A program made the translations under genes and the position numbers. The notes beneath the pieces were generated by a model. The model had not been told where the DNA came from. It did no database searches and was given only the letters and a program-made list of their open reading frames with translations. From a virus (lineage: Duplodnaviria > Caudoviricetes), in the IMG/VR virus record IMGVR_UViG_3300024279_000008, positions 1,772-65,771 of that record: a stretch of 64,000 nt of DNA; one strand, written 5' to 3'. Position 1 is the stretch's first letter, and each line of letters starts with the position of its first letter. This document shows positions 30,130-48,245 of this stretch, in pieces.

Positions 30130-30870
30130 TATTTATGTTAACTTACTATCACTAGTAAGATCGGACTTTCTCATCATTCAGATGTCTGAAGGGAGGCGTA
30201 AAGTCTCTGAGGACTCACCAAAAGGTTTGTTTGCTTCACGAGAAAAATTAAGAATCGATGGATAATTATGAACCTCATCCCTAATTTTTTCGACTAGTTC
30301 CTTTATTCTTGGTTCTCCTTGAAGAGATACTCCATGAAATTTACAGGACTTATCCTGCCCAGCAGCAACTGCTAGACTCTCACGGTAGTCAACCAATTCT
30401 ATTGCTAATTCCGATCTTCGTCGTTTAGCAAATAAATATGGAATGACTTGCTCAAGAAGTTTCTTGACTCTTTGTTTCCCACCAATTGTAATGCAAACTC
30501 CAGGTTTTGACTTCTTTGGACTTTGAGGGGAGGAGATATAAAATCCAACTTCCAGCCTACAAAGAATTTCTGTTGTTCGCCTAATAATTAGTGGATGAGT
30601 ATTATAGATTGTAACTCTTACAGTTAAGTTATTGCATTCTTTCTGGTTTCTAAATCCAGCATAAATACATCCCTCACCATCTATAATAGCTCCAAGCCAA
30701 GCCAAATCGGTGTCTTTCCTGCGGGTTGACTCAGCTTCAGGATTATTACCAACCTGGGTACCTGAAAGACTCTTGAGTGATTCCTGCATATGGTCTCCTT
30801 TTACATGCCCCAAACGGGGAAATTAGTTTACTATCTGACTGTAGAATAGCACGCTATTTCCCAAATGTCC
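30130..30870 (-). mobile_element. group I intron (741 nt) in the major capsid gene
   Basis: IGS CGUUUG-GGGCAUG (30816-30804) pairs with the spliced junction CAUGCCU|CAAACG. P7 GAGACUU/AAGUCC; P9 CUUACUA-GUGA-UAGUAAG. Confidence 0.9.
30178..30789 (-). CDS. intron-encoded LAGLIDADG homing endonuclease
   Basis: LAWLGAIIDGEGCI motif; AAGGAG RBS before ATG 30789. Confidence 0.9.
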   Translation of the reverse strand: MQESLKSLSGTQVGNNPEAESTRRKDTDLAWLGAIIDGEGCIYAGFRNQKECNNLTVRVTIYNTHPLIIRRTTEILCRLEVGFYISSPQSPKKSKPGVCITIGGKQRVKKLLEQVIPYLFAKRRRSELAIELVDYRESLAVAAGQDKSCKFHGVSLQGEPRIKELVEKIRDEVHNYPSILNFSREANKPFGESSETLRLPSDI

Positions 30871-32280: not shown

Positions 32281-34512
32281 CTACTGACTCAAATCAAGCC
32301 ATTGGGTGCCATCATATCGAAGATTGATAATACCACCAGAAACGTAGGCCGTACCAATGTTATTGGCTGGGTTACGAGCGCTCTTAATGGCCAGGGCAGA
32401 TCCGCTAGCATAGGCTAAGGTGTTCGATCCAGCCTGTAAGGAATGGGCTAGTTTGATACTCAACCCTAGACCTTTAATGAGTGGTAGGCCAATCTGGGTC
32501 GCCACCAAGGCATTATTGGCTCCAGTGGATTCATCAGCGGTGTAGTAGACTCCATAGTCATTCCCAGAGGAAGCATCAGCAATGGGGATGGTAATAGAGC
32601 CCGGGATCATGGAATTGGAATGAACCGTGTTTTGGTTGCTGGTAGCATCGAAGTTCATCCCAGTGGTGGCCGTACCACCAAAGCTGTTGCTATTGAATTC
32701 ATTGAGAATGCAGGTGTTGGTAACGGATAACAGAACGGTAGCAGTTGGGTCACCAATCATCACGTTGTTGTTGAAAGTGTTGCCTGCACAAGAGCCGGAA
32801 AAATGCGCGCCGGTCTTTCCCCCTGGTACCCGGAACACGTTGTTGTTATAGGAGCTATATGCAGCTCCTCCAGACCCATCAAGTAGCAGGCCATTCCCAT
32901 ATAGGAACTGGACGTTGCTAACCACTACACCCCGAGAATTGGTATTGTGGATACCGTTGTTACCAGTGGTCGGAGCCACATACCCGCCAGTGATTTCAAT
33001 ACTCCCTGGGTATCCCGTGTTGCCATTAAGGAAAATACAATCCACCTGGCAGCCATCATGGATACTGTTAACAAAGTGCATATCGATAGCAATTGTACTA
33101 TCGATATAGAATCCATAATCGAGGGTAGCAGACTCAAAATGATCAGTTTTGATATCTGAGGTATGGGTACCATGGACGTATAACCCACGTGTATTACTAC
33201 CAGTCCCTACCGCTAAGCAATGTAGAAGGTAGGTGGTGAAGCTTCCTGCGGTGGTCGTGTCAATTTCCCAACCCGACCGTACCGACGCACTAGTTGTCGT
33301 CCAGTTGCTTATAAGAGTATCCCAAGTCCCTGAACGTGCTGAGTTTAGTTTGAAGTTAACAAACGAATCCTTCGCAGAGACATGATCGATAAGTATCCAA
33401 CATGCGTCCGTTGTATTAATCCCAACCGATCCTGCAACCCCAACAGGTGTACGTTGGATTTGGAGATTCCGTACCACGGGGTTGTTAATACTCGTTGCCC
33501 CAGCACAATCAGTGGTTGTTCCTACAATAGAGATAATATCCCCACTTGTCGAGGTATCGTTGATTATCGTGGGAGACGAAGCACCTCCAACACCTAATGG
33601 AGCAACACCTTGGATGGTTACACCACTCTTTTCAATGATTGCTCCTGTGGTTTTATACGTCCCAGCCTGGAGTTGAACAATCCCACCCCCACCCGTGGAG
33701 CGGGCGGCAATTACTGTATTTATTGCTGCAAGATCATCATGGGAATTGTCTCGCAATGCTCCAAGCCACTCGGGGTAGAGGCTAGGGGTAGCAGGGCCAA
33801 ACACAACAGTGCCTGTACCAGTGAGACCGATTTGCTGGACCAATGCCCCATAGAAGGTGCCATTTAGGGTTAGGGTGAAGGTGTTTTTAACGAGGAGTGC
33901 CCCACCGGCGGGTGGGGATAGACTATACACCGGACAAGTCAAGGTTAGATTCGTTCCAACCGCATACGCCTTATTTGGAGTGAGTTGGAACCCTCCAGGG
34001 TACGCAGTACAGGCATTGGTTAAGGCCGTAGAATCATCGGTGGTTCCATCTGCATTAGGAGATTGGGTAGCAATCGATGGCAGTTGCTTCTGGACAAAAG
34101 CATCCGTCCCGAACTTTGTGGAGCTATCTCCATCAGCCTGGGTGGTAGCAGTAGTTGGAGTAGCAGGACCGGTGATTGTAATCCCTCCAACCCCATCATC
34201 GGTGATAGTGATGTTAGTACCGTTTTTGAGGTTAAGGACCGTTTGGGATCCATTGGTGGTTCCATTGGTCTTCAACGTAACCGTTGTTCCTCCACCCTCC
34301 GAAGTGAATGATCCGTTCACACACCGATAGGCGGTGGAGTTACCAGTGTTGTAGAAGAACGCTGGTGAGGAGCAGCTCCCTGGGGTTGTAGCTCCGGCAT
34401 CATAATAAACCCCATTATAAAACGTCATTTGGGAAGGTTGGGAATGGGCAACCTGTCCCAGGGCTAGAAAGGTTGCCAGGAATGTAGCAACCTGAAGAAT
34501 TCTCTTAAACAT
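32281..34512 (-). CDS. beta-helix (pectate-lyase-like) protein with N-terminal signal peptide
   Basis: MFKRILQVATFLATFLALGQVAHS|Q signal; DDLAAIN..GGGIVQLQAGTY; C-terminal YDGTQW. Confidence 0.75.
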   Translation of the reverse strand: MFKRILQVATFLATFLALGQVAHSQPSQMTFYNGVYYDAGATTPGSCSSPAFFYNTGNSTAYRCVNGSFTSEGGGTTVTLKTNGTTNGSQTVLNLKNGTNITITDDGVGGITITGPATPTTATTQADGDSSTKFGTDAFVQKQLPSIATQSPNADGTTDDSTALTNACTAYPGGFQLTPNKAYAVGTNLTLTCPVYSLSPPAGGALLVKNTFTLTLNGTFYGALVQQIGLTGTGTVVFGPATPSLYPEWLGALRDNSHDDLAAINTVIAARSTGGGGIVQLQAGTYKTTGAIIEKSGVTIQGVAPLGVGGASSPTIINDTSTSGDIISIVGTTTDCAGATSINNPVVRNLQIQRTPVGVAGSVGINTTDACWILIDHVSAKDSFVNFKLNSARSGTWDTLISNWTTTSASVRSGWEIDTTTAGSFTTYLLHCLAVGTGSNTRGLYVHGTHTSDIKTDHFESATLDYGFYIDSTIAIDMHFVNSIHDGCQVDCIFLNGNTGYPGSIEITGGYVAPTTGNNGIHNTNSRGVVVSNVQFLYGNGLLLDGSGGAAYSSYNNNVFRVPGGKTGAHFSGSCAGNTFNNNVMIGDPTATVLLSVTNTCILNEFNSNSFGGTATTGMNFDATSNQNTVHSNSMIPGSITIPIADASSGNDYGVYYTADESTGANNALVATQIGLPLIKGLGLSIKLAHSLQAGSNTLAYASGSALAIKSARNPANNIGTAYVSGGIINLRYDGTQWLDLSQ

Positions 34513-34515
34513 AAC

Positions 34516-36804
34516 TTATCGTCCTCCTCCACCAGCCGGGGATTGTTGAGCCTGCTGCTGGAGTTGCTGTTGTTGAAGTTGTTGGGCTCCCATTTCCTGG
34601 GTATGTTGGAGTGCCATTTGGGCTAGTTGGGTTGCTTGTTCCTGCTTAGCAGAGTCTTGTTCATGGGTTAGACGTTGGAGATCCAGGGATTGCTGGTGTT
34701 GTTGCTGGCCTTGGAGTTGTTGGTGTTGGAGGAGTTGGGGGATAAGGCCGATAAGATCCGAGGTGGATGCTTGGTTCTGCATCTCGATCTTTTTGGCTTC
34801 CTGAGTAGCAGGATCAGCGATGATGTCCTCGATCTCGTGGATGTGGGGACGGAAGCACTCAAGGACCCTCCGGAGGAGGACATCCTGGTTCACGTAGGGA
34901 AGCCACGCTTCGGGGTTCTGACCGATGAGGTTCATGAGCTGAACCAGGTTTTGGAGAGTCTCGGCTTTCATGAGCTGGCCGGTGATACCCACAGATTTGA
35001 CCTTGTAGTCCCCCTGGATTAGTTCCATGATCTCCTCACGGGGCATTCCATTGAGGACATCTGCGCCGACCCCAAGGATGGAGGCGACCCGCTGGTCATT
35101 GGAGGTATCGATGAATTGGAAAATCAGATCCATCGCCATTGTGACGAGGGGCTCGATAGCTTCCTTCTCGATGTCTGCTGCCATCCCTCCCATGAAGGAT
35201 TCGGATTGTTGTTGGAGGAGTTGGGACTCGGTAGCGGTTTGTTGGCCTTTCCATCGGGGAAGGCCCTCGGCAATATCTGAGATCAGGGCTCCTTCCTGGT
35301 GGGCTCGGTCAAGCATCGCTGCAACCTGGGTAGTCCCACCAGAGATATCCTGGAACTCCACGGGTTTGATTCCTTGAATCCCCGCATTCCCCAGGTTCTT
35401 CCTAAGCATCTTTCCAGGGACAAGGCCTGTCTCTAGATCCTCGGGGTTCTCGAATGCCTCGACTGCTACCTCAAACAACGGCAGAAGCCTGAACATCAAG
35501 GTATCTACTGAGAGATTCGCGATTTGTGACAGTGCTTTATCAATAAACCGTACATTTTCAATAAGACCCACACCCTCCGTGCGAAAGGGAAGTGAGAGAG
35601 GCGAGAAGCCAATGTAGGGAGCTTTGCGATGTAGGAACGGGTTGTCTTGGTATACGAGAACCGTCGAGTCGTTCCCAAGGATGACATGGGCAAACTCCTT
35701 TACGATCTTTCCGTCAAAGACTATGGGGCCGTAGTACTCGGTGAGTTTGCAGACCGCAGTGTCGGCATTGGGGCCGTTCTGGGTCATAACGGTTTCACCA
35801 AACCGGAGGTTGGACATCTTGTAACGTTCGTCAATCCGCATGGATTGGAGATGGTCGATTTTCTCTCGGGGGAAGATCCCTGCATCAGCCATTTTGATAA
35901 GCTCCCACCGGGGGATTTCGATATCCTCGATGGTTCCTACCCACCGGTTAAGCTTCGAACCGGGAAGCCAATAGAAGTTGTAGGGGTCAACCGCCCGGAG
36001 GTATAGACGACCCTCCATGATTTCTTCCTGGACGAGCTTCTTTTGGGGGATCATTAAGTAGGAAGGAGGGGCGGACCCGCCCGGGCCTTGTCCCCATCCC
36101 TCGGGTGCGAGCATCTCCCCACCAAGTTGCTGGGGGTAGGAGGCTTGGTTTTGTTGCATGTACCCGAACCGGGGTTGCCCAAAGGGCGGGGGGATCTGCC
36201 GAGGGGTAGGCTCAGACTGGAGAAGGTCTTGTTGGGTGTCGAGGGGGCCAGCTTCACCTGGGGAGCCTTGAGGGATAGGAATGTATGAGGTCTTAACCCG
36301 GGTTTGTTTCCGAGGATACAATCCCCACCAGAGCTTCCAAACCCCAAGCCCAAGCATAAACCCGCACTCCAGCCCCTCAGTGAATTCCTTCAGGAAGTAG
36401 GCTTTGTCTAGGAAATGCCGGGTAAGGTAGGTGAGTTGCTCGGCACGGAGAGATTCTAGGATATCATCTGGGTTGGAGGCTTCGATATCCCAGGGTTTCT
36501 TCGAGGCAGTCAAGAGCCGCTTGATGGTGTTGGTAGCCATCTTGACCGAGGTCCAGGATTTTGGGAGGACAATCTTCGATTGCCAGTCATCCTTCACAGA
36601 CCAATCATCCAATCCTCGATAGAGCTTCCAGCAATCATCCCAGATGTTCCGGCGTTGGATAAATACCGATCGGCACTGCTGCCGCCATGTGGTGATGTAT
36701 GCCGCGATTTTTGCTTCCTCTGAGGAGGGTTGATTCGTCGAGGTGGCTTCATTACCCGAGGAAAAGTCAATCGGGTATGCATGTTCTAATTGGACAATGG
36801 CCAT
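34516..36804 (-). CDS. portal protein (P22-like)
   Basis: 762 aa; VDPYNFYWLPG, TATE..LLQQ and Q-rich C-terminal barrel; follows the terminase nuclease gene. Confidence 0.88.
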   Translation of the reverse strand: MAIVQLEHAYPIDFSSGNEATSTNQPSSEEAKIAAYITTWRQQCRSVFIQRRNIWDDCWKLYRGLDDWSVKDDWQSKIVLPKSWTSVKMATNTIKRLLTASKKPWDIEASNPDDILESLRAEQLTYLTRHFLDKAYFLKEFTEGLECGFMLGLGVWKLWWGLYPRKQTRVKTSYIPIPQGSPGEAGPLDTQQDLLQSEPTPRQIPPPFGQPRFGYMQQNQASYPQQLGGEMLAPEGWGQGPGGSAPPSYLMIPQKKLVQEEIMEGRLYLRAVDPYNFYWLPGSKLNRWVGTIEDIEIPRWELIKMADAGIFPREKIDHLQSMRIDERYKMSNLRFGETVMTQNGPNADTAVCKLTEYYGPIVFDGKIVKEFAHVILGNDSTVLVYQDNPFLHRKAPYIGFSPLSLPFRTEGVGLIENVRFIDKALSQIANLSVDTLMFRLLPLFEVAVEAFENPEDLETGLVPGKMLRKNLGNAGIQGIKPVEFQDISGGTTQVAAMLDRAHQEGALISDIAEGLPRWKGQQTATESQLLQQQSESFMGGMAADIEKEAIEPLVTMAMDLIFQFIDTSNDQRVASILGVGADVLNGMPREEIMELIQGDYKVKSVGITGQLMKAETLQNLVQLMNLIGQNPEAWLPYVNQDVLLRRVLECFRPHIHEIEDIIADPATQEAKKIEMQNQASTSDLIGLIPQLLQHQQLQGQQQHQQSLDLQRLTHEQDSAKQEQATQLAQMALQHTQEMGAQQLQQQQLQQQAQQSPAGGGGR

Positions 36805-36808
36805 AGGG

Positions 36809-37726
36809 TTACCGTAAGAACGTCCATTCTTTATCTTGGGTCATTCGCTGACGAGGAGCGGTAGAAGCAGGGCCAAAGCCGAACTTAGCGGCGAGGTTGG
36901 GCAAGGAGATCTTTCGAGACCGTAGGGATGGAGCGGAGTTCATGAAGTACTTACAGTCATCCAAGGCGTGGTTTTGTTTATCGATGAGCTGCTCCCGGTA
37001 GTTTTGGGTTTCAAGTTGCCGTTCGGTCATTGAAACATACGTAGCGTTCTCGAATTCCTCAATCATCTTCGGGCAGGATGACATGATTTTGAAGGTTACC
37101 TCATCCCCACACCAGTGTTTTTGCATGGTTGAAAGCCAGGCCTGCTCATCGGTGTTGCCTTGGAGGAGCTTGGAGATCCCCATCTCGATGAATTGCCGCC
37201 CAATCGTGGACATCATTCCGGTTCGCATGTCCCGTTGGGAGTAGTTGTTGAGGGATGGGTCATGGGCGATGTACCGGATTTGGTCCCAATACGGGCAGGC
37301 CTTCAAGGCCGAGGAGAATGCTTGGATGTCCTTACAGGGTTCGTATAGCTCCCAGATGGCATAGAGGATTCCATCCACTGCTGTGTAGACATGGAAGCTG
37401 GAGGGGTTGCGGGAGCCGTAATCAAACCCCGCCCACATAGGGAGGGACCGAGGCCAGTCGTTGAATTGGAACGGGCCGTCATGGAGGATGATCTCAGATT
37501 GACGGGATTTAATCTCCGGGAAGGCCTTCTCCCCGAGCATGGCATCGTAGGAGATGTCGAATTCCTGTTCGAACTTTGCCTGGGACATACCCTTAGCGGC
37601 TTCCTTTCGCCAAGCAGCAGATCGCTTCCGAGGGTCAGCAGTGTGATGGAGGGTTGCCACGACGAAGCCGTTCTGACCATTCTGGACGATCTTCAAGCCT
37701 TGCTGGGTATGGAGGAGTTTAGCCAA
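36809..37726 (-). CDS. terL: terminase large subunit, C-terminal (lid + nuclease) polypeptide
   Basis: GGAG RBS + TTG; LHHTADP, FEQEFDI, AGFDYGSRNP, DKQNHALDDCKY. Confidence 0.85.
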   Translation of the reverse strand: MAKLLHTQQGLKIVQNGQNGFVVATLHHTADPRKRSAAWRKEAAKGMSQAKFEQEFDISYDAMLGEKAFPEIKSRQSEIILHDGPFQFNDWPRSLPMWAGFDYGSRNPSSFHVYTAVDGILYAIWELYEPCKDIQAFSSALKACPYWDQIRYIAHDPSLNNYSQRDMRTGMMSTIGRQFIEMGISKLLQGNTDEQAWLSTMQKHWCGDEVTFKIMSSCPKMIEEFENATYVSMTERQLETQNYREQLIDKQNHALDDCKYFMNSAPSLRSRKISLPNLAAKFGFGPASTAPRQRMTQDKEWTFLR

Positions 37727-38459
37727 GGACCGCTCCTACTGGAGGGACTGCAAGGAGCATTTTGGAGACGGTCAGCCCGAAGGGGTTGGGGGCATGGTTG
37801 AAGTTCTGGGTGTTGTACATAGGGAAGAAGAACTTCGTTACATCGTACCCCAACCTCCCAAGAATCTCAGGGAGCTGCTCCAGACCTTGTTGCATAACTG
37901 TATCGAACTCCATAAACAGCGGGCATCGGGTCCTCTGAAGGGTCTCAAGGGCACCAACCAGGAAGGCAGGTTCCATTCCCTCGATGTCGGCTTTGATGAA
38001 GGCAGGGGTCAGGCCGAAGGAGTCCAAAGTTCGGATCTCTACAGCCACGTCCCCTTTGGAATCCATCATGGTACCTCCTGCTCCCTCGATTGGAGGAACC
38101 GAGGAGTAATACATCGTCATGGGTTTGTCCCCCAACCCAAATGGCAGAACCTCCACGTTGGAGATGTGGTTGGTAGCTAGGTTCCATTCTAGTACCTCTC
38201 GGACCTCAACCTGGGGCTCGAAGGCATAGATCTTTCGACAGACCTTTGAGAGGGGGAGGGTTAGATCCCCAATGTAGGCTCCGGCCTCGACAATATCCAC
38301 CGGTCCAGAGTGGAGGGAGAGCAACCCAAGAAAGACCTTTAGGTAAGTTAGCTCTGAATCGGAGTATTCCCCTAGCTCCCGAAGACTCCTTGACACCCAA
38401 GGGTCCTCATTGAAGATCTTCATTGGGCCATACCGGGTTGGGACAATGGAAGTTGTCAA
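37719..38459 (-). CDS. FkbM-family SAM-dependent methyltransferase
   Basis: VEAGAYIG, AFEPQ, IKADIEGME. Confidence 0.88.
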   Translation of the reverse strand: MTTSIVPTRYGPMKIFNEDPWVSRSLRELGEYSDSELTYLKVFLGLLSLHSGPVDIVEAGAYIGDLTLPLSKVCRKIYAFEPQVEVREVLEWNLATNHISNVEVLPFGLGDKPMTMYYSSVPPIEGAGGTMMDSKGDVAVEIRTLDSFGLTPAFIKADIEGMEPAFLVGALETLQRTRCPLFMEFDTVMQQGLEQLPEILGRLGYDVTKFFFPMYNTQNFNHAPNPFGLTVSKMLLAVPPVGAVLG

Positions 38460-38462
38460 GGG

Positions 38463-38819
38463 TTATTTACCAACGGATTTCAAAAACACCGATGCAGCCA
38501 CAAGGATATCTGAGGCTAGGGCCTCAGTAGCTAGGGGACCATCAATCACTGTTGCTGGTCCCTTCAAAACCCCTTTGGCATTCAATGCCGTCACAGTAGA
38601 TTGGACTCCATTGGTTAGGTCCGCGCCGGTCTGCGGGGTACCTAGCAACGCCCCCACTGCACTCAACCCACCCTGGATAGCAGCAGAGATCTCAGTGGCT
38701 GCGGGGAGTTTCTGCGCTCCAGACTTGGGTGGGAAGAGTTTCTCTACGAGTTTGGCTACCAGGTCATTGATGACTGGGATTGCAATTGGGGCTACCATCC
38801 CAATAACTGCACCTGCCAT
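38463..38819 (-). CDS. putative holin-like membrane protein
   Basis: Hydrophobic N-terminus and GAQKL motif; TAATG coupling. Confidence 0.4.
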   Translation of the reverse strand: MAGAVIGMVAPIAIPVINDLVAKLVEKLFPPKSGAQKLPAATEISAAIQGGLSAVGALLGTPQTGADLTNGVQSTVTALNAKGVLKGPATVIDGPLATEALASDILVAASVFLKSVGK

Positions 38820-39172
38820 TACTGGACCTCCACAGGGGTGGAGACATCCCACTTGGCAAAAGTGAGGGCCTCAGTGAGAGGCACGCCAGGCATTCCCCAA
38901 TATGTAGCGAGCTGCCCGGCGTTCCGACGGGTTCCATCCGGGAACTCAAGCCATGGAACAGCTCGGTTAAAACCAAACGGCGAACCGGGGGCTTGAGGGA
39001 TAGGTGGGGCAAAGACTACTTTGGGTTTATCAGGAAACAACCCCGCCAACACCAAAGCACTCGAAGGCATCAAACAGTAAAGTTGGTTGATAGGTTGAAC
39101 GATCTTCGGGGAGGTTGTGTGGTATTCCAAGACCCCAGAGTCATATTGTGGAACAAAATCTTCAGGTTTCAT
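38819..39172 (-). CDS. hypothetical protein
   Basis: 117-aa ORF directly after the terminase ATPase gene. Confidence 0.65.
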   Translation of the reverse strand: MKPEDFVPQYDSGVLEYHTTSPKIVQPINQLYCLMPSSALVLAGLFPDKPKVVFAPPIPQAPGSPFGFNRAVPWLEFPDGTRRNAGQLATYWGMPGVPLTEALTFAKWDVSTPVEVQ

Positions 39173-39174
39173 AA

Positions 39175-40044
39175 TTAGTTGTCGCTTGTGTCTCGACAGA
39201 TTTTTTCGAACCAGCTCCTATTTGCTGAGGAGATTGCTGTGAACTTTCCCCCCATAAGGATAGCTGGTTTGATTGCTGCATAGGCTGCCTCAGCCTCGAC
39301 CTGGAAGGCTGCCTCGTCAAGAAATATCCCGGAGGGATGGAACTGTCGAATTTGATCCGGACCTTGAGCAAATCCGAGAATCTCAGATTCTTGTTTTGTA
39401 ACAAACATTTCTCCTGAGCGGTGGTCGCCTTTGCCGAATACCACCGGTCCTACCACATCCCGAAGGAACTTGGGTTGTTGACGAGCGATGAAATGGGCAC
39501 GTTGGACAAGCTCCAGGGTCTTAGGAGCAGTTTGGGATTGGAACAAATGCTGCCGTCCCTTGTGGAAGAGGGTATCCCACGTGTGGAGAGCTACTACCAG
39601 CCAAGTCGCCATCATATCCCGGGATTTCTCCACCACGAAATACTGGTCCTTTACCCACTCCTCAATGAGTGGGAGCATATAGGCTTTTAGGAGGAAATCC
39701 GGGAACGGTCGAATGGCCGGTAGTTCATGAAACTCGGCCTCGATCTCCCTGAGCTTGGTAAGGATCTTACCATGGGTAAGCTCCAAATGAGTCCCTCTAG
39801 ACTGCGGTAGTACCTCCATTTGGCAAGAGCGGCACTCGAAGAGTAGATGGGGGTCCTTCGTATAGACATAAGGGATGCCCTCGGGGAATTGCTCGGTCTT
39901 GGGGTGCTGGGAGGCATCGAACCAATAGATCGCATCATCCTGACAGCGGGTGTATTCTCGTTCCCCAATGGCTTGGAAAATCCTCCGCTGGTCCTTAGGG
40001 GCCATTCCGGAGATTTGCTTGAAGACCTTTGGGGTTAGTTCCAT
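39175..40044 (-). CDS. terL: terminase large subunit, N-terminal ATPase polypeptide
   Basis: Walker A-like VEKSRDMMATW, Walker B IFLDEAAF, coupling motif ISSAN, then a stop. Confidence 0.85.
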   Translation of the reverse strand: MELTPKVFKQISGMAPKDQRRIFQAIGEREYTRCQDDAIYWFDASQHPKTEQFPEGIPYVYTKDPHLLFECRSCQMEVLPQSRGTHLELTHGKILTKLREIEAEFHELPAIRPFPDFLLKAYMLPLIEEWVKDQYFVVEKSRDMMATWLVVALHTWDTLFHKGRQHLFQSQTAPKTLELVQRAHFIARQQPKFLRDVVGPVVFGKGDHRSGEMFVTKQESEILGFAQGPDQIRQFHPSGIFLDEAAFQVEAEAAYAAIKPAILMGGKFTAISSANRSWFEKICRDTSDN

Positions 40045-40165
40045 GGGTTATCGACGGCCTGACATTGCTTCGAAAGCAGACACAACCTGAGAATCGAAGG
40101 ATTGGATCTTGCGAAGCTCTGAGGTGAGGTACCAGCCCCACACAAGGATCCCTAGGACTAGGAGT

Positions 40166-40999
40166 CTACCAAACGTAATTTTTACTGTCACGTATTTCCT
40201 CCACGGTTACGGTTGAGGTGTAGGGCTTGCCTACCACTACTGCTGCGGCCATATTTGCAAAGTCGATATTCCCGATGAGGTTGTTTCGGTCCTCTAACCA
40301 AGCCTTCACGAAGGCTGCAAGGACTGTGTCACCTGCTCCATTCACGGAGACAACCTCCTTAGCGAGGGATGGTCGGGTGATGATTCCTCGACCGTACTCT
40401 AGCCAAGCTAGGCCTTCCGGGCCACGTTTCAGGAGGACCTTTGGGAACCAGTCATAGGAGGATCGGTACCGCATGTACTCGGAGGTGTTTGGGAAGAGTG
40501 TTACGTAGTCGCCGCCTTGGAACCAGGGGAGTGGGTCGGATTTGGTATCCACAAAAAGGGGAAGTTCTAGAGCTAGAAGGAACTCCTCAATGTCCTCAGT
40601 GATTGAACCCTTTCGGTAATCTGAAACAACTACTGCCTCCAACCCCGGAAGATATGGGATGATGTCTTTGACCCGAATAGGGGAACAATAATCCCTTTCA
40701 TCCCACCGAGCAAGTTGGAGGTTGGATTCAGTCACGAGGCGGTTTTTAATCGGGATATTCCCTGGCCCTGCCAATGGAGCTACTGCCTTGACTTTGAGGG
40801 CCTTCAGATTATCCTGAACATTCCACGCGCCACCTGGGAATTCTTTGGTGTCGATCACATCCACAATTGGGACGGGGGCCTCAGCGGACATCCCTCGGAT
40901 GGTCCCAATGAAGTACTGGTCAACAAAAGCATCACCAAGAACGAGGATGGTATGGAGGCCTCCTACTGCTTCTTCGGGGTTTCGCATAGCTTTGCCCAT
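40166..40999 (-). CDS. PfkB-family kinase, HldE/RfaE domain I (heptose-7-phosphate kinase)-like
   Basis: ILVLGDAFVDQYFIG...SAEAPVPIV, GGAWNV..NL, VVSDYRKGSI, VDTK, VNGAGDTVLAAF. Confidence 0.85.
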   Translation of the reverse strand: MGKAMRNPEEAVGGLHTILVLGDAFVDQYFIGTIRGMSAEAPVPIVDVIDTKEFPGGAWNVQDNLKALKVKAVAPLAGPGNIPIKNRLVTESNLQLARWDERDYCSPIRVKDIIPYLPGLEAVVVSDYRKGSITEDIEEFLLALELPLFVDTKSDPLPWFQGGDYVTLFPNTSEYMRYRSSYDWFPKVLLKRGPEGLAWLEYGRGIITRPSLAKEVVSVNGAGDTVLAAFVKAWLEDRNNLIGNIDFANMAAAVVVGKPYTSTVTVEEIRDSKNYVW

Positions 41000-41238
41000 T
41001 CCGCCCTCTCCTGACCTTTGGTCCAGGTCAATGTTCGTTGGCCTTCATACCGGATTTGGAGGGGTTCGGCATCCTCCCACTCATCTGAGGTGACATTCAG
41101 TGCCACGACCCGGGAAAGGGATGGGTGGACTAGGACTTCCCGGACCTCACCATTCAACGGAACGACTCCATCGGTGTAGTGAACCAGGAGGCTGTAAAGA
41201 TTGGCAGGTTCGAATACTAGAGTTTTTTGTCCAGGCAT
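40963..41238 (-). CDS. hypothetical protein
   Basis: ORF in the leftward operon. Confidence 0.55.
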   Translation of the reverse strand: MPGQKTLVFEPANLYSLLVHYTDGVVPLNGEVREVLVHPSLSRVVALNVTSDEWEDAEPLQIRYEGQRTLTWTKGQERAEWAKLCETPKKQ

Positions 41239-41424
41239 CTAATTCACCAAGTAGGTCCGTTGAAGGTCAAACCGGATCTCCTCAAGGGGTTGGGGACCAG
41301 GGTAGCTTTCTGCTTCGATGAGAATAGCCATCTTTCGTTCCTGGGGGTTGAACATCAGCTTCACTGCGTAGGCATCATCTGGGACGGCGATGAGACCTGC
41401 GTAGTCCTTGAAAAGTTCGAGCAC
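41239..41424 (-). CDS. hypothetical protein
   Basis: Abuts the next gene; start codon uncertain. Confidence 0.45.
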   Translation of the reverse strand: MLELFKDYAGLIAVPDDAYAVKLMFNPQERKMAILIEAESYPGPQPLEEIRFDLQRTYLVN

Positions 41425-41626
41425 GCTGTCAATCGGGATAATTACTAATTTGGTTTTAATTTCGCTACCTCGCGGTTGGTCCGTCTGTAGGGCTACGTCC
41501 CTTCTCCGGTTTCATCTGGGATTGATGGGGACAAAAGAACTTCCGAGCCAGTCCACTATCCGGCCTTCCGAGTCCTTTAAGGAATATCCATGTCCTCCGG
41601 CAATCCTTGCACATAGGGGCTACCGG

Positions 41627-41863
41627 TTAGTAGCCACCGTCACTACCCATGGTCTGACCCTTACCAGTGTCATCCCGAGCCTCATCACCGGGGTTACCGG
41701 ATCCAAAGTTATGGGGGTTCTGATGGGCCTTGAAGGGGTGCTCCTGCTTGGGGAGAGACCGGTAATGAAGGGCATTACGGGTATCGCCAATGAGGGCCAT
41801 GTCTTCAGCTACCGGATGCTCAATTCCGCGAGTGCTGCCTTTTACTCCTCGACCTGCTGCCAT
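41627..41863 (-). CDS. small G/D-rich protein
   Basis: AAAGGAG RBS before ATG 41863. Confidence 0.6.
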   Translation of the reverse strand: MAAGRGVKGSTRGIEHPVAEDMALIGDTRNALHYRSLPKQEHPFKAHQNPHNFGSGNPGDEARDDTGKGQTMGSDGGY

Positions 41864-42135
41864 TTGGTTATTGCTCCTTTCTAAGTTTGGGAGGGCTGAA
41901 GGTTGCAAGCCTTCGATGGATCACCGATCCACATTCCCGGTGCGCCCTGCCTTACACCGCCTGGAATTGAACCAGGGAGGGTGCCGGTCCCTACTATCCT
42001 CTCGGCTCGGTATGTCTACCTTCGGGACCATAACTGGGGTGCCGCATCTCCCCCGATCCTGGGGCTCATTATGACAAGGGATTGGAGCGGTATGTGGCTC
42101 CCGGGTCTTGTCCAGCACATAAAAGGGAACCTGGG

Positions 42136-47769: not shown

Positions 47770-48245
47770 ATCCAGAATCCCCTTGGTGGCGAGCTCGGGA
47801 GAGTTTGCTGATTGATATCCCAACGGGGATCTTCGGACCTGGGTTCAATTCCCAGCACCTCCACCAAGCCATCGGAGCCAATGTAGCTTCTGGCATAAGG
47901 TTTAAGAAAAGTTCATCGTGACTTGGGATAGCTTCCCAGCGCCTGACCAGGATAAAAGGCGGTTTCGGTGGCTCGGTGGGGGTGTAACGGTTTCGACGGG
48001 GACCCACCGGTAAGGTAGAGTACCAGGGGCTAGCGAAAGCCGTCTCTGCGAAGCAGCAACAGGTAGCCGACTACCTGAGAGGAGCCCACGATGCGTGGGA
48101 GCCTCGACAATAGCGGAAAACCAACAACTGCCAATTCCATTGTCAGTAAAGTAACTCGCATTTGGGAACGGATCGTCGAAGCGATCAGCCCTGCGGGTTA
48201 TAGCCCTGCGTTCGCGTAGGGACGATGGGGGCGAAAAGCCCCCTC
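47770..48245 (+). ncRNA. ssrA: circularly permuted two-piece tmRNA (acceptor piece ends 47866; coding piece starts 47978)
   Basis: 3' TLD GGAC-CTGGG-TTCAATT-CCCAG-CACCTCC-ACCA lies upstream of 5' GGGGGTGTAACGGTTTCGACGGGG; G3:U70; tag ORF 48130-48219. Outer ends approximate. Confidence 0.9.

What the first reader, a model, noticed from the sequence alone, without database searches (positions are those of the whole stretch)
36809..40044. Large terminase split into two genes separated by three unrelated genes
Seen: the ATPase half (39175-40044; KSRDMMATW, LDEAAF, ISSAN) stops right after the coupling motif. The lid and nuclease half (36809-37726; LHHTADP, FEQEFDI, FDYGSRNP, HALDD) has its own GGAG-TTG start overlapping the FkbM stop. 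A 117-aa ORF, a holin-like ORF and an FkbM methyltransferase sit between them, all tightly coupled, with no intron motifs. Known: TerL is normally one polypeptide whose ATPase-nuclease linkage coordinates packaging. Inference: a heterodimeric TerL, split inside the ATPase lid region.
Basis: partly seen in the sequence, partly recalled or inferred. Interest (0 to 1): 0.75.

Follow-up and report, generated by a model that had tools for sequence, protein, structure and literature searches.

The report
Two-gene phage terminase enclosing accessory genes
This phage, its whole lineage and many unrelated phages encode the DNA-packaging enzyme (large terminase) as two separate proteins cut at one flexible seam, which here holds three extra genes, so a motor assumed to need one chain apparently also works as two.

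Summary
On the minus strand, a 289-aa ORF (39175-40044) is a T4 gp17-type terminase ATPase core. A 305-aa ORF (36809-37726) is the rest of the enzyme: lid/"transmission" subdomain, hinge and RNase H-type nuclease. Three tightly coupled genes lie between them (orf117, a one-TM 118-aa ORF, an FkbM methyltransferase).

The two ORFs tile fused homologues and T4 gp17 (67-305; ~331-561) without overlap. Catalytic residues are invariant, and both halves are under purifying selection. The complete 65.8-kb DTR genome holds no other terminase. No intron, intein or spare non-coding space exists.

The split is not peculiar to this phage:
- All ~120 closest nuclease-half clusters are split.
- Across the wider family, split (90) and fused (45) forms interleave on the tree, with at least 14 switches.
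- The break always falls in one variable linker.
- Relatives show every intermediate: fused, abutting (TAATG/ATGA overlaps), HNH endonuclease or small-terminase inserts, and 0.8-3.8-kb accessory-gene islands in this clade.

Most likely this is a genuine two-chain TerL whose ATP cleft forms between chains. Physical association was not tested, because the complex-prediction server was unreachable. I found no published description. This scan has noted two-piece terminases before on other, unrelated DNA.

The parts
39175..40044 (-). TerL-N: large-terminase ATPase core (equivalent to T4 gp17 NsubI), 289 aa. Deviant Walker A K140/R142, Walker B D243/E244, C-motif S272.
   Evidence: PHROG terminase hits. 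AF2 pLDDT 95.3. VIA Z 21.4 to gp17, model 3-289 = gp17 67-305. hhalign to T4 gp17 E 2.4e-17, gp17 101-299. Invariant residues. pN 0.16-0.34 against pS 0.74-0.95.
39772..39834 (-). Clade-specific C2H2-like zinc-finger insertion within TerL-N (C71, C74, H86, H91).
   Evidence: The C-x2-C...H-x3-4-H motif is conserved in all window-clade ATPase halves and absent from other clades. AF2 gives strand-strand-helix at residues 61-91. Metal binding was not tested.
38819..39172 (-). orf117: unassigned 117-aa island gene. It starts 2 nt after the TerL-N stop.
   Evidence: ORF list. Junction sequence. No Pfam, PHROG or Atlas assignment. Not found in the fetched relatives.
38463..38819 (-). orf118: island gene with one N-terminal transmembrane segment, possibly holin-like. 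The likely ATG at 38819 overlaps the orf117 stop (TAATG). The longest ORF runs from a GTG at 38852.
   Evidence: Junction sequence with GGAGG upstream. Hydropathy maximum 1.95 over residues 4-22. Atlas structural TM 0.49 to a Holin_LLH cluster, weak. No Pfam hit.
37719..38459 (-). FkbM-family methyltransferase, 246 aa, the last island gene.
   Evidence: PF05050 1.3e-9 and phrog_8156 3.6e-20. Homologues lie in the same position in L003-L008, L011, L013, L019 and L020.
36809..37726 (-). TerL-C, 305 aa: lid/transmission subdomain (residues ~1-63), hinge, and RNase H-type nuclease (residues ~64-268; D102, D156, D256). TTG start with GGAG 7 nt upstream.
   Evidence: PHROG terminase hits. AF2 pLDDT 82.5. 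VIA: D6E TerL Z 20.3; gp17 361-561 Z 14.2. hhalign residues 35-87 = gp17 331-393, weak but collinear. Invariant residues. Start context.
34516..36804 (-). Portal protein, directly downstream of TerL-C (context).
   Evidence: phrog_1216 5e-22. Conserved downstream of the nuclease half in all relatives.
40166..40999 (-). pfkB-family sugar kinase-like gene upstream of TerL-N (context). It is conserved in this position in relatives.
   Evidence: PF00294 7.7e-12 and phrog_8133 2.3e-39. Synteny.

Best explanation
The phage makes its large terminase as two polypeptides from one late operon.
- TerL-N (289 aa) is the Rossmann-type ATPase 'engine', with Walker A, Walker B and the C-motif.
- TerL-C (305 aa) carries the lid/'transmission' subdomain (equivalent to T4 gp17 ~306-353), the hinge and the RNase H-type nuclease.

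Shown:
- The two ORFs tile a complete gp17-type TerL.
- The break lies in a variable surface linker between the last core helix and the first lid strand.
- Both genes are conserved, selected and independently startable.
- The arrangement is ancient in this lineage and recurs across the family.

Inferred:
- The first ~63 residues of TerL-C dock non-covalently on TerL-N to close the ATP-binding cleft. In gp17 that cleft lies between NsubI and NsubII.
- This rebuilds a TerL protomer, and five such pairs would assemble on the portal to package and cut DNA.
- The seam, once open, tolerates insertions. It holds nothing in some relatives, homing endonucleases or the small-terminase gene in others, and in this clade a fast-changing island of accessory genes co-transcribed with the packaging genes.
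For: 1. Tiling.
- Fused homologues are covered contiguously.
- TerL-N = gp17 67-305 (Z 21.4; hhalign E 2.4e-17).
- TerL-C residues 64-268 = gp17 361-561, and residues 35-87 = gp17 331-393.
- PMC3074133 defines NsubII as residues 1-58 plus 314-353 and the hinge as 354-364. PMC9958956 places ATP in the NsubI/NsubII cleft.

2. Function retained.
- K140, R142, D243 and E244 are invariant and S272 nearly so over 69 ATPase halves.
- D102 and D156 are invariant and D256 nearly so; lid residues G10, N16, K34 and E55 are also invariant.
- pN is 0.16-0.37 while pS is saturated at 0.73-0.95.

3. Only terminase. HMMs of both halves (filters off) and 47 fused homologues find nothing else in the 65,771-bp DTR genome. 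No ORF of 330 aa or more that was tested hits a terminase family.

4. Independent translation.
- In relatives the nuclease-half ORF starts with ATG, GTG or TTG at or within ~40 codons of the point where homology begins. In the window the start follows a GGAG.
- Relatives have abutting halves with TAATG/ATGA-type overlaps in a different frame, which leaves no room for an intron.

5. Breadth.
- All 120 listed nuclease-half clusters (46-100% identity, many on 62-73-kb contigs) are 232-314 aa.
- Of 138 ATPase cores, 90 are split and 45 fused, interleaved on the tree, with at least 14 changes forced by well-supported branches.
- The break always lies in the same variable linker.

6. No intron signal. 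Rfam sensitive mode finds nothing across 34000-42000. The same mode does detect the group I intron in this genome's capsid gene.
Against: - No direct evidence that the two proteins associate. The complex prediction never ran (12 attempts), and no transcript or protein data exist for this uncultivated phage.
- The alignment of TerL-C residues 1-63 to gp17 NsubII rests on position and one weak profile hit (E 0.019). VIA aligned only residues 64 onward.
- 'Split' status for most database representatives is inferred from protein length and C-terminal position. It was confirmed in genomic context for only about 35 loci.
- The host is unknown.
Confidence: 0.8

Rival explanations
1. The two halves are both functional but do not form a stable heterodimer. 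TerL-N alone forms the translocating ring on the portal. TerL-C acts as a separately recruited nuclease at initiation and termination, so ATPase and nuclease are truly uncoupled.
For: - The AF2 model of TerL-N alone is compact and confident (pLDDT 95).
- phi29-type motors package with an ATPase that lacks a nuclease (established knowledge; phi29 and phi28 ATPases appear among the fold hits).
- Islands of up to 3.8 kb between the genes would weaken translational coupling of stoichiometry.
Against: - TerL-C carries not only the nuclease but also the strongly conserved segment that in gp17 forms one wall of the ATP cleft and the transmission element (PMC3074133, PMC9958956). A free-standing nuclease would not need it.
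- In fused relatives the same segment is part of the ATPase domain.
Confidence: 0.1
2. The 1.45-kb insert is removed at the RNA or protein level (group I/II intron, translational bypass, or split-intein trans-splicing), so a single-chain TerL is still made.
For: - This genome does carry a group I intron in its capsid gene (RF00028, E 0.0018).
- Intron-split terL genes are documented in other phages (Jug phages, PMC12880540).
Against: - The three island ORFs fill the whole gap with 2-3-nt spacers or overlaps, so there is no room for a ribozyme core.
- Rfam sensitive mode finds no intron here.
- No reverse transcriptase or homing endonuclease is present in the window's insert.
- TerL-N ends in a conserved stop, and TerL-C begins at a start codon with an SD.
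- Both ends are flush with fused homologues, which leaves no intein fragments.
- Relatives with abutting halves in different frames cannot be spliced.
Confidence: 0.05
3. The ORFs are decaying remnants of a disrupted terL or an assembly artefact, and packaging depends on another terminase.
For: None beyond the unusual layout.
Against: - Complete DTR genome with no other terminase.
- Catalytic residues invariant.
- Purifying selection through saturation of synonymous sites.
- The same layout in dozens of independent assemblies from ENA, JGI, Logan and NCBI.
Confidence: 0.02

Closest known systems
Canonical single-chain large terminase, T4 gp17 type (PDB 2o0j, 3cpe)
   Same: Same ATPase fold and motifs, same RNase H-type nuclease with an acidic triad, same position next to the portal gene. 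The two ORFs together cover gp17 67-561.
   Different: The chain is broken at about gp17 305/306, between NsubI (engine) and the second segment of NsubII (transmission). The ATP cleft would therefore be formed by two polypeptides. Three unrelated genes lie between the halves.
'Genes-in-pieces' ribonucleotide reductase of Aeromonas phage Aeh1 (nrdA split by the homing endonuclease gene mobE; Friedrich et al. 2007, PMC1851037, cited in PMC5418858 and PMC8351571; I did not read it here)
   Same: An essential phage enzyme is encoded as two ORFs with foreign gene(s) between them, and is believed to reassemble non-covalently. In sister clades the TerL seam does hold HNH endonuclease genes (L035, L040).
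   Different: - In this window and its clade the inserts are accessory enzymes, not homing endonucleases.
- The split is ancient, family-wide and recurrent, not a single recent insertion.
- Many relatives are split with no insert at all.
Intron-interrupted terL genes (Jug phages, PMC12880540; Bastillevirinae, PMC11878797; Twort-like phages)
   Same: Gene callers report terL as two or three fragments with intervening ORFs.
   Different: Those are restored by RNA splicing, with RNA evidence in PMC12880540. Here there is no ribozyme, no free non-coding DNA, and each half has its own stop or start.
N4-like phage RNAP1/RNAP2 genes separated by zero to eight spacer genes (PMC5418858)
   Same: Two parts of one enzyme with a variable number of unrelated genes, including HNH endonucleases, between them in different relatives.
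   Different: A different enzyme. For TerL a covalent ATPase-nuclease link is generally assumed to matter for coupling.
Herpesvirus terminase gene UL15 (two exons with other genes in the intron; from my own knowledge, not checked here)
   Same: A terminase ATPase/nuclease gene in two collinear pieces with unrelated genes between them.
   Different: In herpesviruses the pieces are joined by spliceosomal splicing into one protein.
Two-piece terminases noted earlier by this scan (Ca. Enterousia T7-type clusters enclosing dnaB; an archaeal-virus lineage, e1-3286506)
   Same: ATPase and nuclease halves as separate, conserved genes with foreign DNA between them.
   Different: Different TerL lineages and different inserts. 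No sequence look-alike of this nuclease half was found in other windows. Their claims were not tested here.

Membership tests
Large terminase (TerL), T4 gp17 type | ASCE/Rossmann ATPase with Walker A, Walker B plus catalytic Glu, and C-motif | tested here: met
   K140/R142, D243/E244 and S272 conserved. Fold Z 21.4 to gp17. hhalign E 2.4e-17 with the motifs in register.
Large terminase (TerL), T4 gp17 type | C-terminal RNase H-fold nuclease with an acidic metal-binding triad | tested here: met
   D102, D156 and D256 conserved. Fold Z 20.3 to D6E TerL, 18.0 to the P22 nuclease, 14.2 to gp17 361-561.
Large terminase (TerL), T4 gp17 type | ATPase and nuclease on one polypeptide | tested here: not met
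   Two ORFs separated by 1449 nt holding three genes, each half with its own stop or start. Conserved in relatives.
Large terminase (TerL), T4 gp17 type | Encoded in the packaging/head module next to the portal gene, and the only terminase of the genome | tested here: met
   The portal starts 5 nt after TerL-C. No other terminase-like sequence is in the genome.
Large terminase (TerL), T4 gp17 type | ATP-driven DNA packaging and concatemer cutting | not testable with these tools
   Needs biochemistry or genetics. The phage is uncultivated.
Intron-split gene (group I or II) | Ribozyme core in the intervening DNA | tested here: not met
   No Rfam intron hit at E up to 1 across 34000-42000, although the same mode detects RF00028 in the capsid gene. 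The gap is fully occupied by three coupled ORFs.
Intron-split gene (group I or II) | Exons that join in frame, with no need for their own stop/start and RBS | tested here: not met
   Conserved stop after TerL-N and conserved start codon (plus GGAG in the window) at the first homologous residue of TerL-C. Abutting halves lie in different frames in relatives.
Split-intein ('fractured gene') arrangement | N- and C-intein fragments at the broken ends | tested here: not met
   Both ends are flush with fused homologues, and the break lies in a 10-25-aa linker with no extra domains. No intein Pfam hit.
Genes-in-pieces created by homing-endonuclease insertion | A homing endonuclease gene between the two pieces | tested here: not met
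   Window insert: FkbM plus two unassigned ORFs, with no HNH, GIY-YIG or LAGLIDADG domain. Met only in the distant relatives L035 (HNH) and L040 (NUMOD3+HNH).
Genes-in-pieces created by homing-endonuclease insertion | Both pieces retained under selection, with function kept | tested here: inconclusive
   Purifying selection and invariant catalytic residues are shown. Enzymatic function of the pair is not testable here.

The most novel reading that the evidence does not exclude
The linker between the Rossmann core and the transmission subdomain of gp17-type terminases is a general 'open seam'.
- In a large part of the uncultivated phage world the packaging motor is natively a two-chain enzyme whose ATP site is built across chains.
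- The seam is a privileged landing pad where homing endonucleases, the small-terminase gene or whole accessory-gene islands settle.
- The two-chain state is itself adaptive, not neutral. It might, for example, allow separate dosage or timing of the nuclease, or blunt host immune sensors that recognise intact TerL.
Probability: 0.2. Interest if true: 0.8.

Novelty: new variant of a known kind. Interest (0 to 1): 0.62.

Why it matters
Current models of terminase motors treat TerL as one chain. In the T4 electrostatic model and the P74-26 lid-lever model, ATP hydrolysis in the Rossmann core is relayed through the lid/transmission subdomain and a hinge to the DNA-gripping and DNA-cutting domain.

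A natural, widespread, selected enzyme cut exactly between the engine and the transmission element is a ready-made test of those models. Force and regulatory signals would have to cross a non-covalent interface, and the ATP cleft would be a composite site.

There are practical consequences too:
- Marker-based phage detection, TerL phylogenies and completeness tools that expect a ~500-aa TerL will mis-annotate these phages. Both halves are currently labelled 'hypothetical' in the source databases.
- The seam is also a clear example of how an essential gene can become a stable docking site for accessory genes.

Tried and rejected
- **Complex prediction:** TerL-N with TerL-C residues 1-96, 12 attempts (and one more in between). 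The server did not complete, so there is no verdict either way.
- **tblastn of both window halves against 50,697 deposited phage genomes:** no match at E 1e-3. More central family members hit only fused, often unannotated, TerLs in isolates (Pseudomonas phage Rollin, Pelagibacter phage EXVC031P, Microcystis phage Mwe-JY08). I therefore found no cultured phage with the two-gene form.
- **The genome search with phrog_2 on the own genome:** found nothing, not even the known ATPase ORF. It was too insensitive and was replaced by my own HMM search.
- **Profile-based locus scans with the diverse alignments A1 and A2:** Replaced by single-protein scans and the clade alignment A3.
- **Context of short database representatives P0022, P0043 and P0058:** contigs mostly too short. 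Only L023 was informative.
- **Host identification:** the 335-kb JGI contig carrying a relative is not held. The species-genome scan returned only a phage-sized contig binned as 'Thaumarchaeota archaeon REEA14', which I regard as a binning artefact.
- **Mobile-cassette signatures:** no meaningful direct or inverted repeats at the island borders. Promoter-like and terminator-like sites are no more frequent than in shuffles.
- **Literature:** eight searches found only intron-mediated terL splits and analogous splits of other enzymes. None described a two-polypeptide TerL. The library is limited to open-access papers and bioRxiv preprints, so this is not proof of absence.
- **Rejected readings:** stop-codon reassignment or read-through (the halves are in different frames in abutting relatives), programmed bypass (inserts of 0.8-3.8 kb full of genes), and pseudogene remnants.
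Full report
**1. What is there**

The window is bases 1772-65771 of a 65,771-bp IMG/VR virus record with direct terminal repeats (127 bp by my check) and a CheckV completeness of 100%. On the minus strand lies an uninterrupted gene string:

| Gene | Coordinates | Size |
|---|---|---|
| pfkB-like kinase | 40166-40999 | 277 aa |
| TerL-N | 39175-40044 | 289 aa |
| orf117 | 38819-39172 | 117 aa |
| hydrophobic-N-terminus ORF | 38463-38852, more likely from the ATG at 38819 | 118 aa |
| FkbM methyltransferase | 37719-38459 | 246 aa |
| TerL-C | 36809-37726 | 305 aa |
| portal | 34516-36804 | 762 aa |

Pfam and PHROGs confirm FkbM, pfkB and the portal. They assign both flanking ORFs to large-terminase families, each over only part of the profile.

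The genes are tightly coupled:
- TerL-N stop, 2 nt, then the orf117 ATG.
- The orf117 stop overlaps the next ATG (TAATG, with GGAGG upstream).
- Stop, 3 nt, then the FkbM TTG.
- The TerL-C TTG lies 7 nt after a GGAG and overlaps the FkbM stop by 8 nt.

**2. The two ORFs make one complete terminase**

- Fused homologues of 524 and 526 aa are covered contiguously and without overlap. TerL-N covers 53-229 and 60-240; TerL-C covers 260-509 and 249 onward.
- TerL-N folds with pLDDT 95.3. It superposes on the T4 gp17 ATPase domain with Z 21.4, model 3-289 on gp17 67-305, and on P74-26 TerL up to residue ~205-209.
- A profile of 69 ATPase halves aligns to gp17 101-299 at E 2.4e-17, with Walker A, Walker B, the C-motif and the following helix in register.
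- TerL-C (pLDDT 82.5) superposes from residue 64 on terminase nucleases: D6E TerL 233-417, Z 20.3; gp17 361-561, Z 14.2.
- The only profile alignment of TerL-C to gp17 is weak (E 0.019) but collinear. It puts residues 35-87 on gp17 331-393.
- In gp17, NsubII is residues 1-58 plus 314-353 and the hinge is 354-364 (PMC3074133). ATP binds in the cleft between NsubI and NsubII, and NsubII is the 'transmission' element (PMC9958956).
- The natural cut at about gp17 305/306 therefore separates the engine (ORF 1) from the transmission subdomain, hinge and nuclease (ORF 2).

**3. Both halves are functional genes, and the only terminase**

- K140, R142, D243 and E244 are invariant and S272 nearly so across 69 ATPase halves.
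- D102 and D156 are invariant and D256 nearly so across 23 nuclease halves. The lid residues G10, N16, K34 and E55 are also invariant.
- Against relatives, non-synonymous differences are 0.16-0.37 per site while synonymous sites are saturated at 0.73-0.95.
- HMMs of both halves run without filters, and 47 fused homologues used as queries, find nothing else in the six-frame translation of the whole genome.
- Ten of the 13 ORFs long enough to be a TerL were scanned against PHROGs, and none hit a terminase family.

**4. Not an intron, intein or artefact**

- Rfam in sensitive mode finds no intron across 34000-42000. The same mode does pick up a group I intron in this genome's capsid gene at 30142-30381 (E 0.0018), so the negative carries some weight.
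- More decisive: the gap has no free non-coding DNA.
- In relatives TerL-N ends in a stop within a few residues of the same point. TerL-C opens with ATG, GTG or TTG at or close to where homology begins.
- Both ends are flush with fused homologues, which leaves no intein fragments.
- Many relatives have the two halves abutting in different frames with 1-14-nt overlaps (TAATG, ATGA), where nothing could be spliced out.
- Independent assemblies from ENA, JGI, Logan and NCBI share the layout.

**5. The split is lineage-wide and family-wide**

- All 17 IMG/VR loci of the window's clade that reach both halves (43-76% identity) are split at the same point.
- All 120 listed nuclease-half clusters (46-100% identity) are 232-314 aa, and many sit on 62-73-kb contigs.
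- An exhaustive search with TerL-N found 809 relatives. Of 138 usable cores among the best 150, 90 end at the same point and 45 are fused.
- On a maximum-likelihood tree the two states interleave. Well-supported branches force at least 14-15 changes, and the window sits in a 13-member all-split clade.
- A junction alignment explains this. Fused forms have a 10-25-residue, poorly conserved polar linker between the last core helix and the first, highly conserved lid strand. Every split lies inside that linker. A stop plus a start, or a single indel, is enough to switch state.

**6. The seam as a landing pad**

Profiling about 45 loci with HMMs of both halves gives a graded series:

| State | Loci | Evidence |
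|---|---|---|
| Fused, 508-523 aa | L031-33, L042 | |
| Abutting halves | L023, L025, L026, L029, L030, L036-38, L043-46 | |
| 179-nt spacer | L024 | |
| HNH endonuclease gene | L035 | |
| NUMOD3+HNH gene | L040 | |
| Small-terminase gene | L039 | |

In the window's clade the seam holds islands of 0.76-3.8 kb with one to about eight same-strand genes. These include FkbM, TylF-like and class I methyltransferases, cytidylyltransferase-like proteins, a ClpB-like AAA ATPase, an M15 peptidase and unknowns.

The window's orf117 and orf118 are not found in the fetched relatives. No homing endonuclease, flanking repeat or excess of promoter or terminator sites marks the window's island.

With the conserved pfkB kinase upstream of TerL-N, the island content looks like sugar-nucleotide and methylation accessory metabolism. 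I did not pursue its function.

**7. Mechanism proposed**

Shown: two selected genes that together encode every element of a gp17-type TerL, cut in a surface linker.

Inferred:
- The N-terminal ~63 residues of TerL-C dock on TerL-N to complete the ATP cleft and relay hydrolysis to the hinge and nuclease.
- The pair is the protomer of the pentameric motor.

The main alternative is that TerL-N forms the motor alone and TerL-C acts as a separately recruited nuclease. It fits poorly with the strong conservation of the lid segment on TerL-C. The complex prediction that would bear on this could not be run.

**8. Novelty**

- Intron-split terL genes are documented (PMC12880540, PMC11878797).
- Enzymes split by homing endonucleases are documented (Friedrich et al. 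2007).
- N4-like RNAP genes with zero to eight spacer genes are documented (PMC5418858).
- I found no description of a TerL made as two polypeptides. The sources label these proteins 'hypothetical'.
- This scan has reported two-piece terminases before, on unrelated DNA: Ca. Enterousia clusters around dnaB, and an archaeal-virus lineage. No look-alike of this nuclease half exists in other windows.

I therefore rate it a new variant of a known kind. It is of real interest to the packaging-motor field, and relevant to annotation and TerL-based phylogenies.

Noticed in passing
window 39772-39834 (-), residues 71-91 of TerL-N: A clade-specific C-x2-C...H-x3-4-H insertion that AF2 folds as strand-strand-helix, like a classical C2H2 zinc finger. 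It is conserved in all ATPase halves of the window's clade and absent from other split clades. It may be a DNA-binding or partner-binding element of the terminase.
   Followed up: partly
window 30142-30381 (-): Group I intron signal (RF00028, 24.1 bits, E 0.0018, below the gathering score) inside the capsid-gene region flagged by another first-reader note. Relatives L053 and L054 carry a LAGLIDADG_3 ORF between two ORFs in the corresponding position downstream of the portal.
   Followed up: partly
window 47830-48002 (+): Permuted (two-piece) tmRNA, RF04321, 59.8 bits, above the gathering score. It argues for a bacterial host.
   Followed up: partly
L054 / L055 (NCBI JAGWFS010000009.1, 63,580 bp): A full-length relative of this phage (nuclease half 60% identical, same split layout) is deposited as a contig of a 'Thaumarchaeota archaeon REEA14' MAG. 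Peptidoglycan peptidases (M15) in relatives' islands, SD-type RBSs and the tmRNA suggest a bacterial host, so this is probably a binning artefact.
   Followed up: partly
L039:1752-2426: In one distant split relative the gene between the ATPase and (divergent) nuclease halves is a small-terminase homologue (Terminase_2, 3.8e-6).
   Followed up: no
L011:2834-4156: A ClpB/AAA_2-type ATPase (4.6e-31, with the ClpB D2-small domain) sits in the inter-half island of one clade member, next to FkbM.
   Followed up: no
window ~40048-40191 (-): A 47-aa ORF with a hydrophobic segment fills most of the 121-nt gap between the pfkB-like gene and TerL-N. It ends 3 nt before the TerL-N ATG. It may be a small membrane protein or a chance ORF.
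   Followed up: no
window 40166-40999 and islands of L012, L015, L018, L020, L050-L052: A pfkB-type kinase upstream of TerL-N plus cytidylyltransferase-like, cupin and methyltransferase genes inside the island in relatives resemble a split RfaE/HldE-type sugar-nucleotide pathway interleaved with the terminase genes. This fits another first-reader note about a heptose-glycosylation system.
   Followed up: no
L050-L052 (locus positions 1-850): Relatives carry a serine recombinase (Resolvase) about 9 kb upstream of the terminase module, and one lies in a 335-kb contig. This could be an integrated or mis-joined copy, and it could reveal the host.
   Followed up: partly
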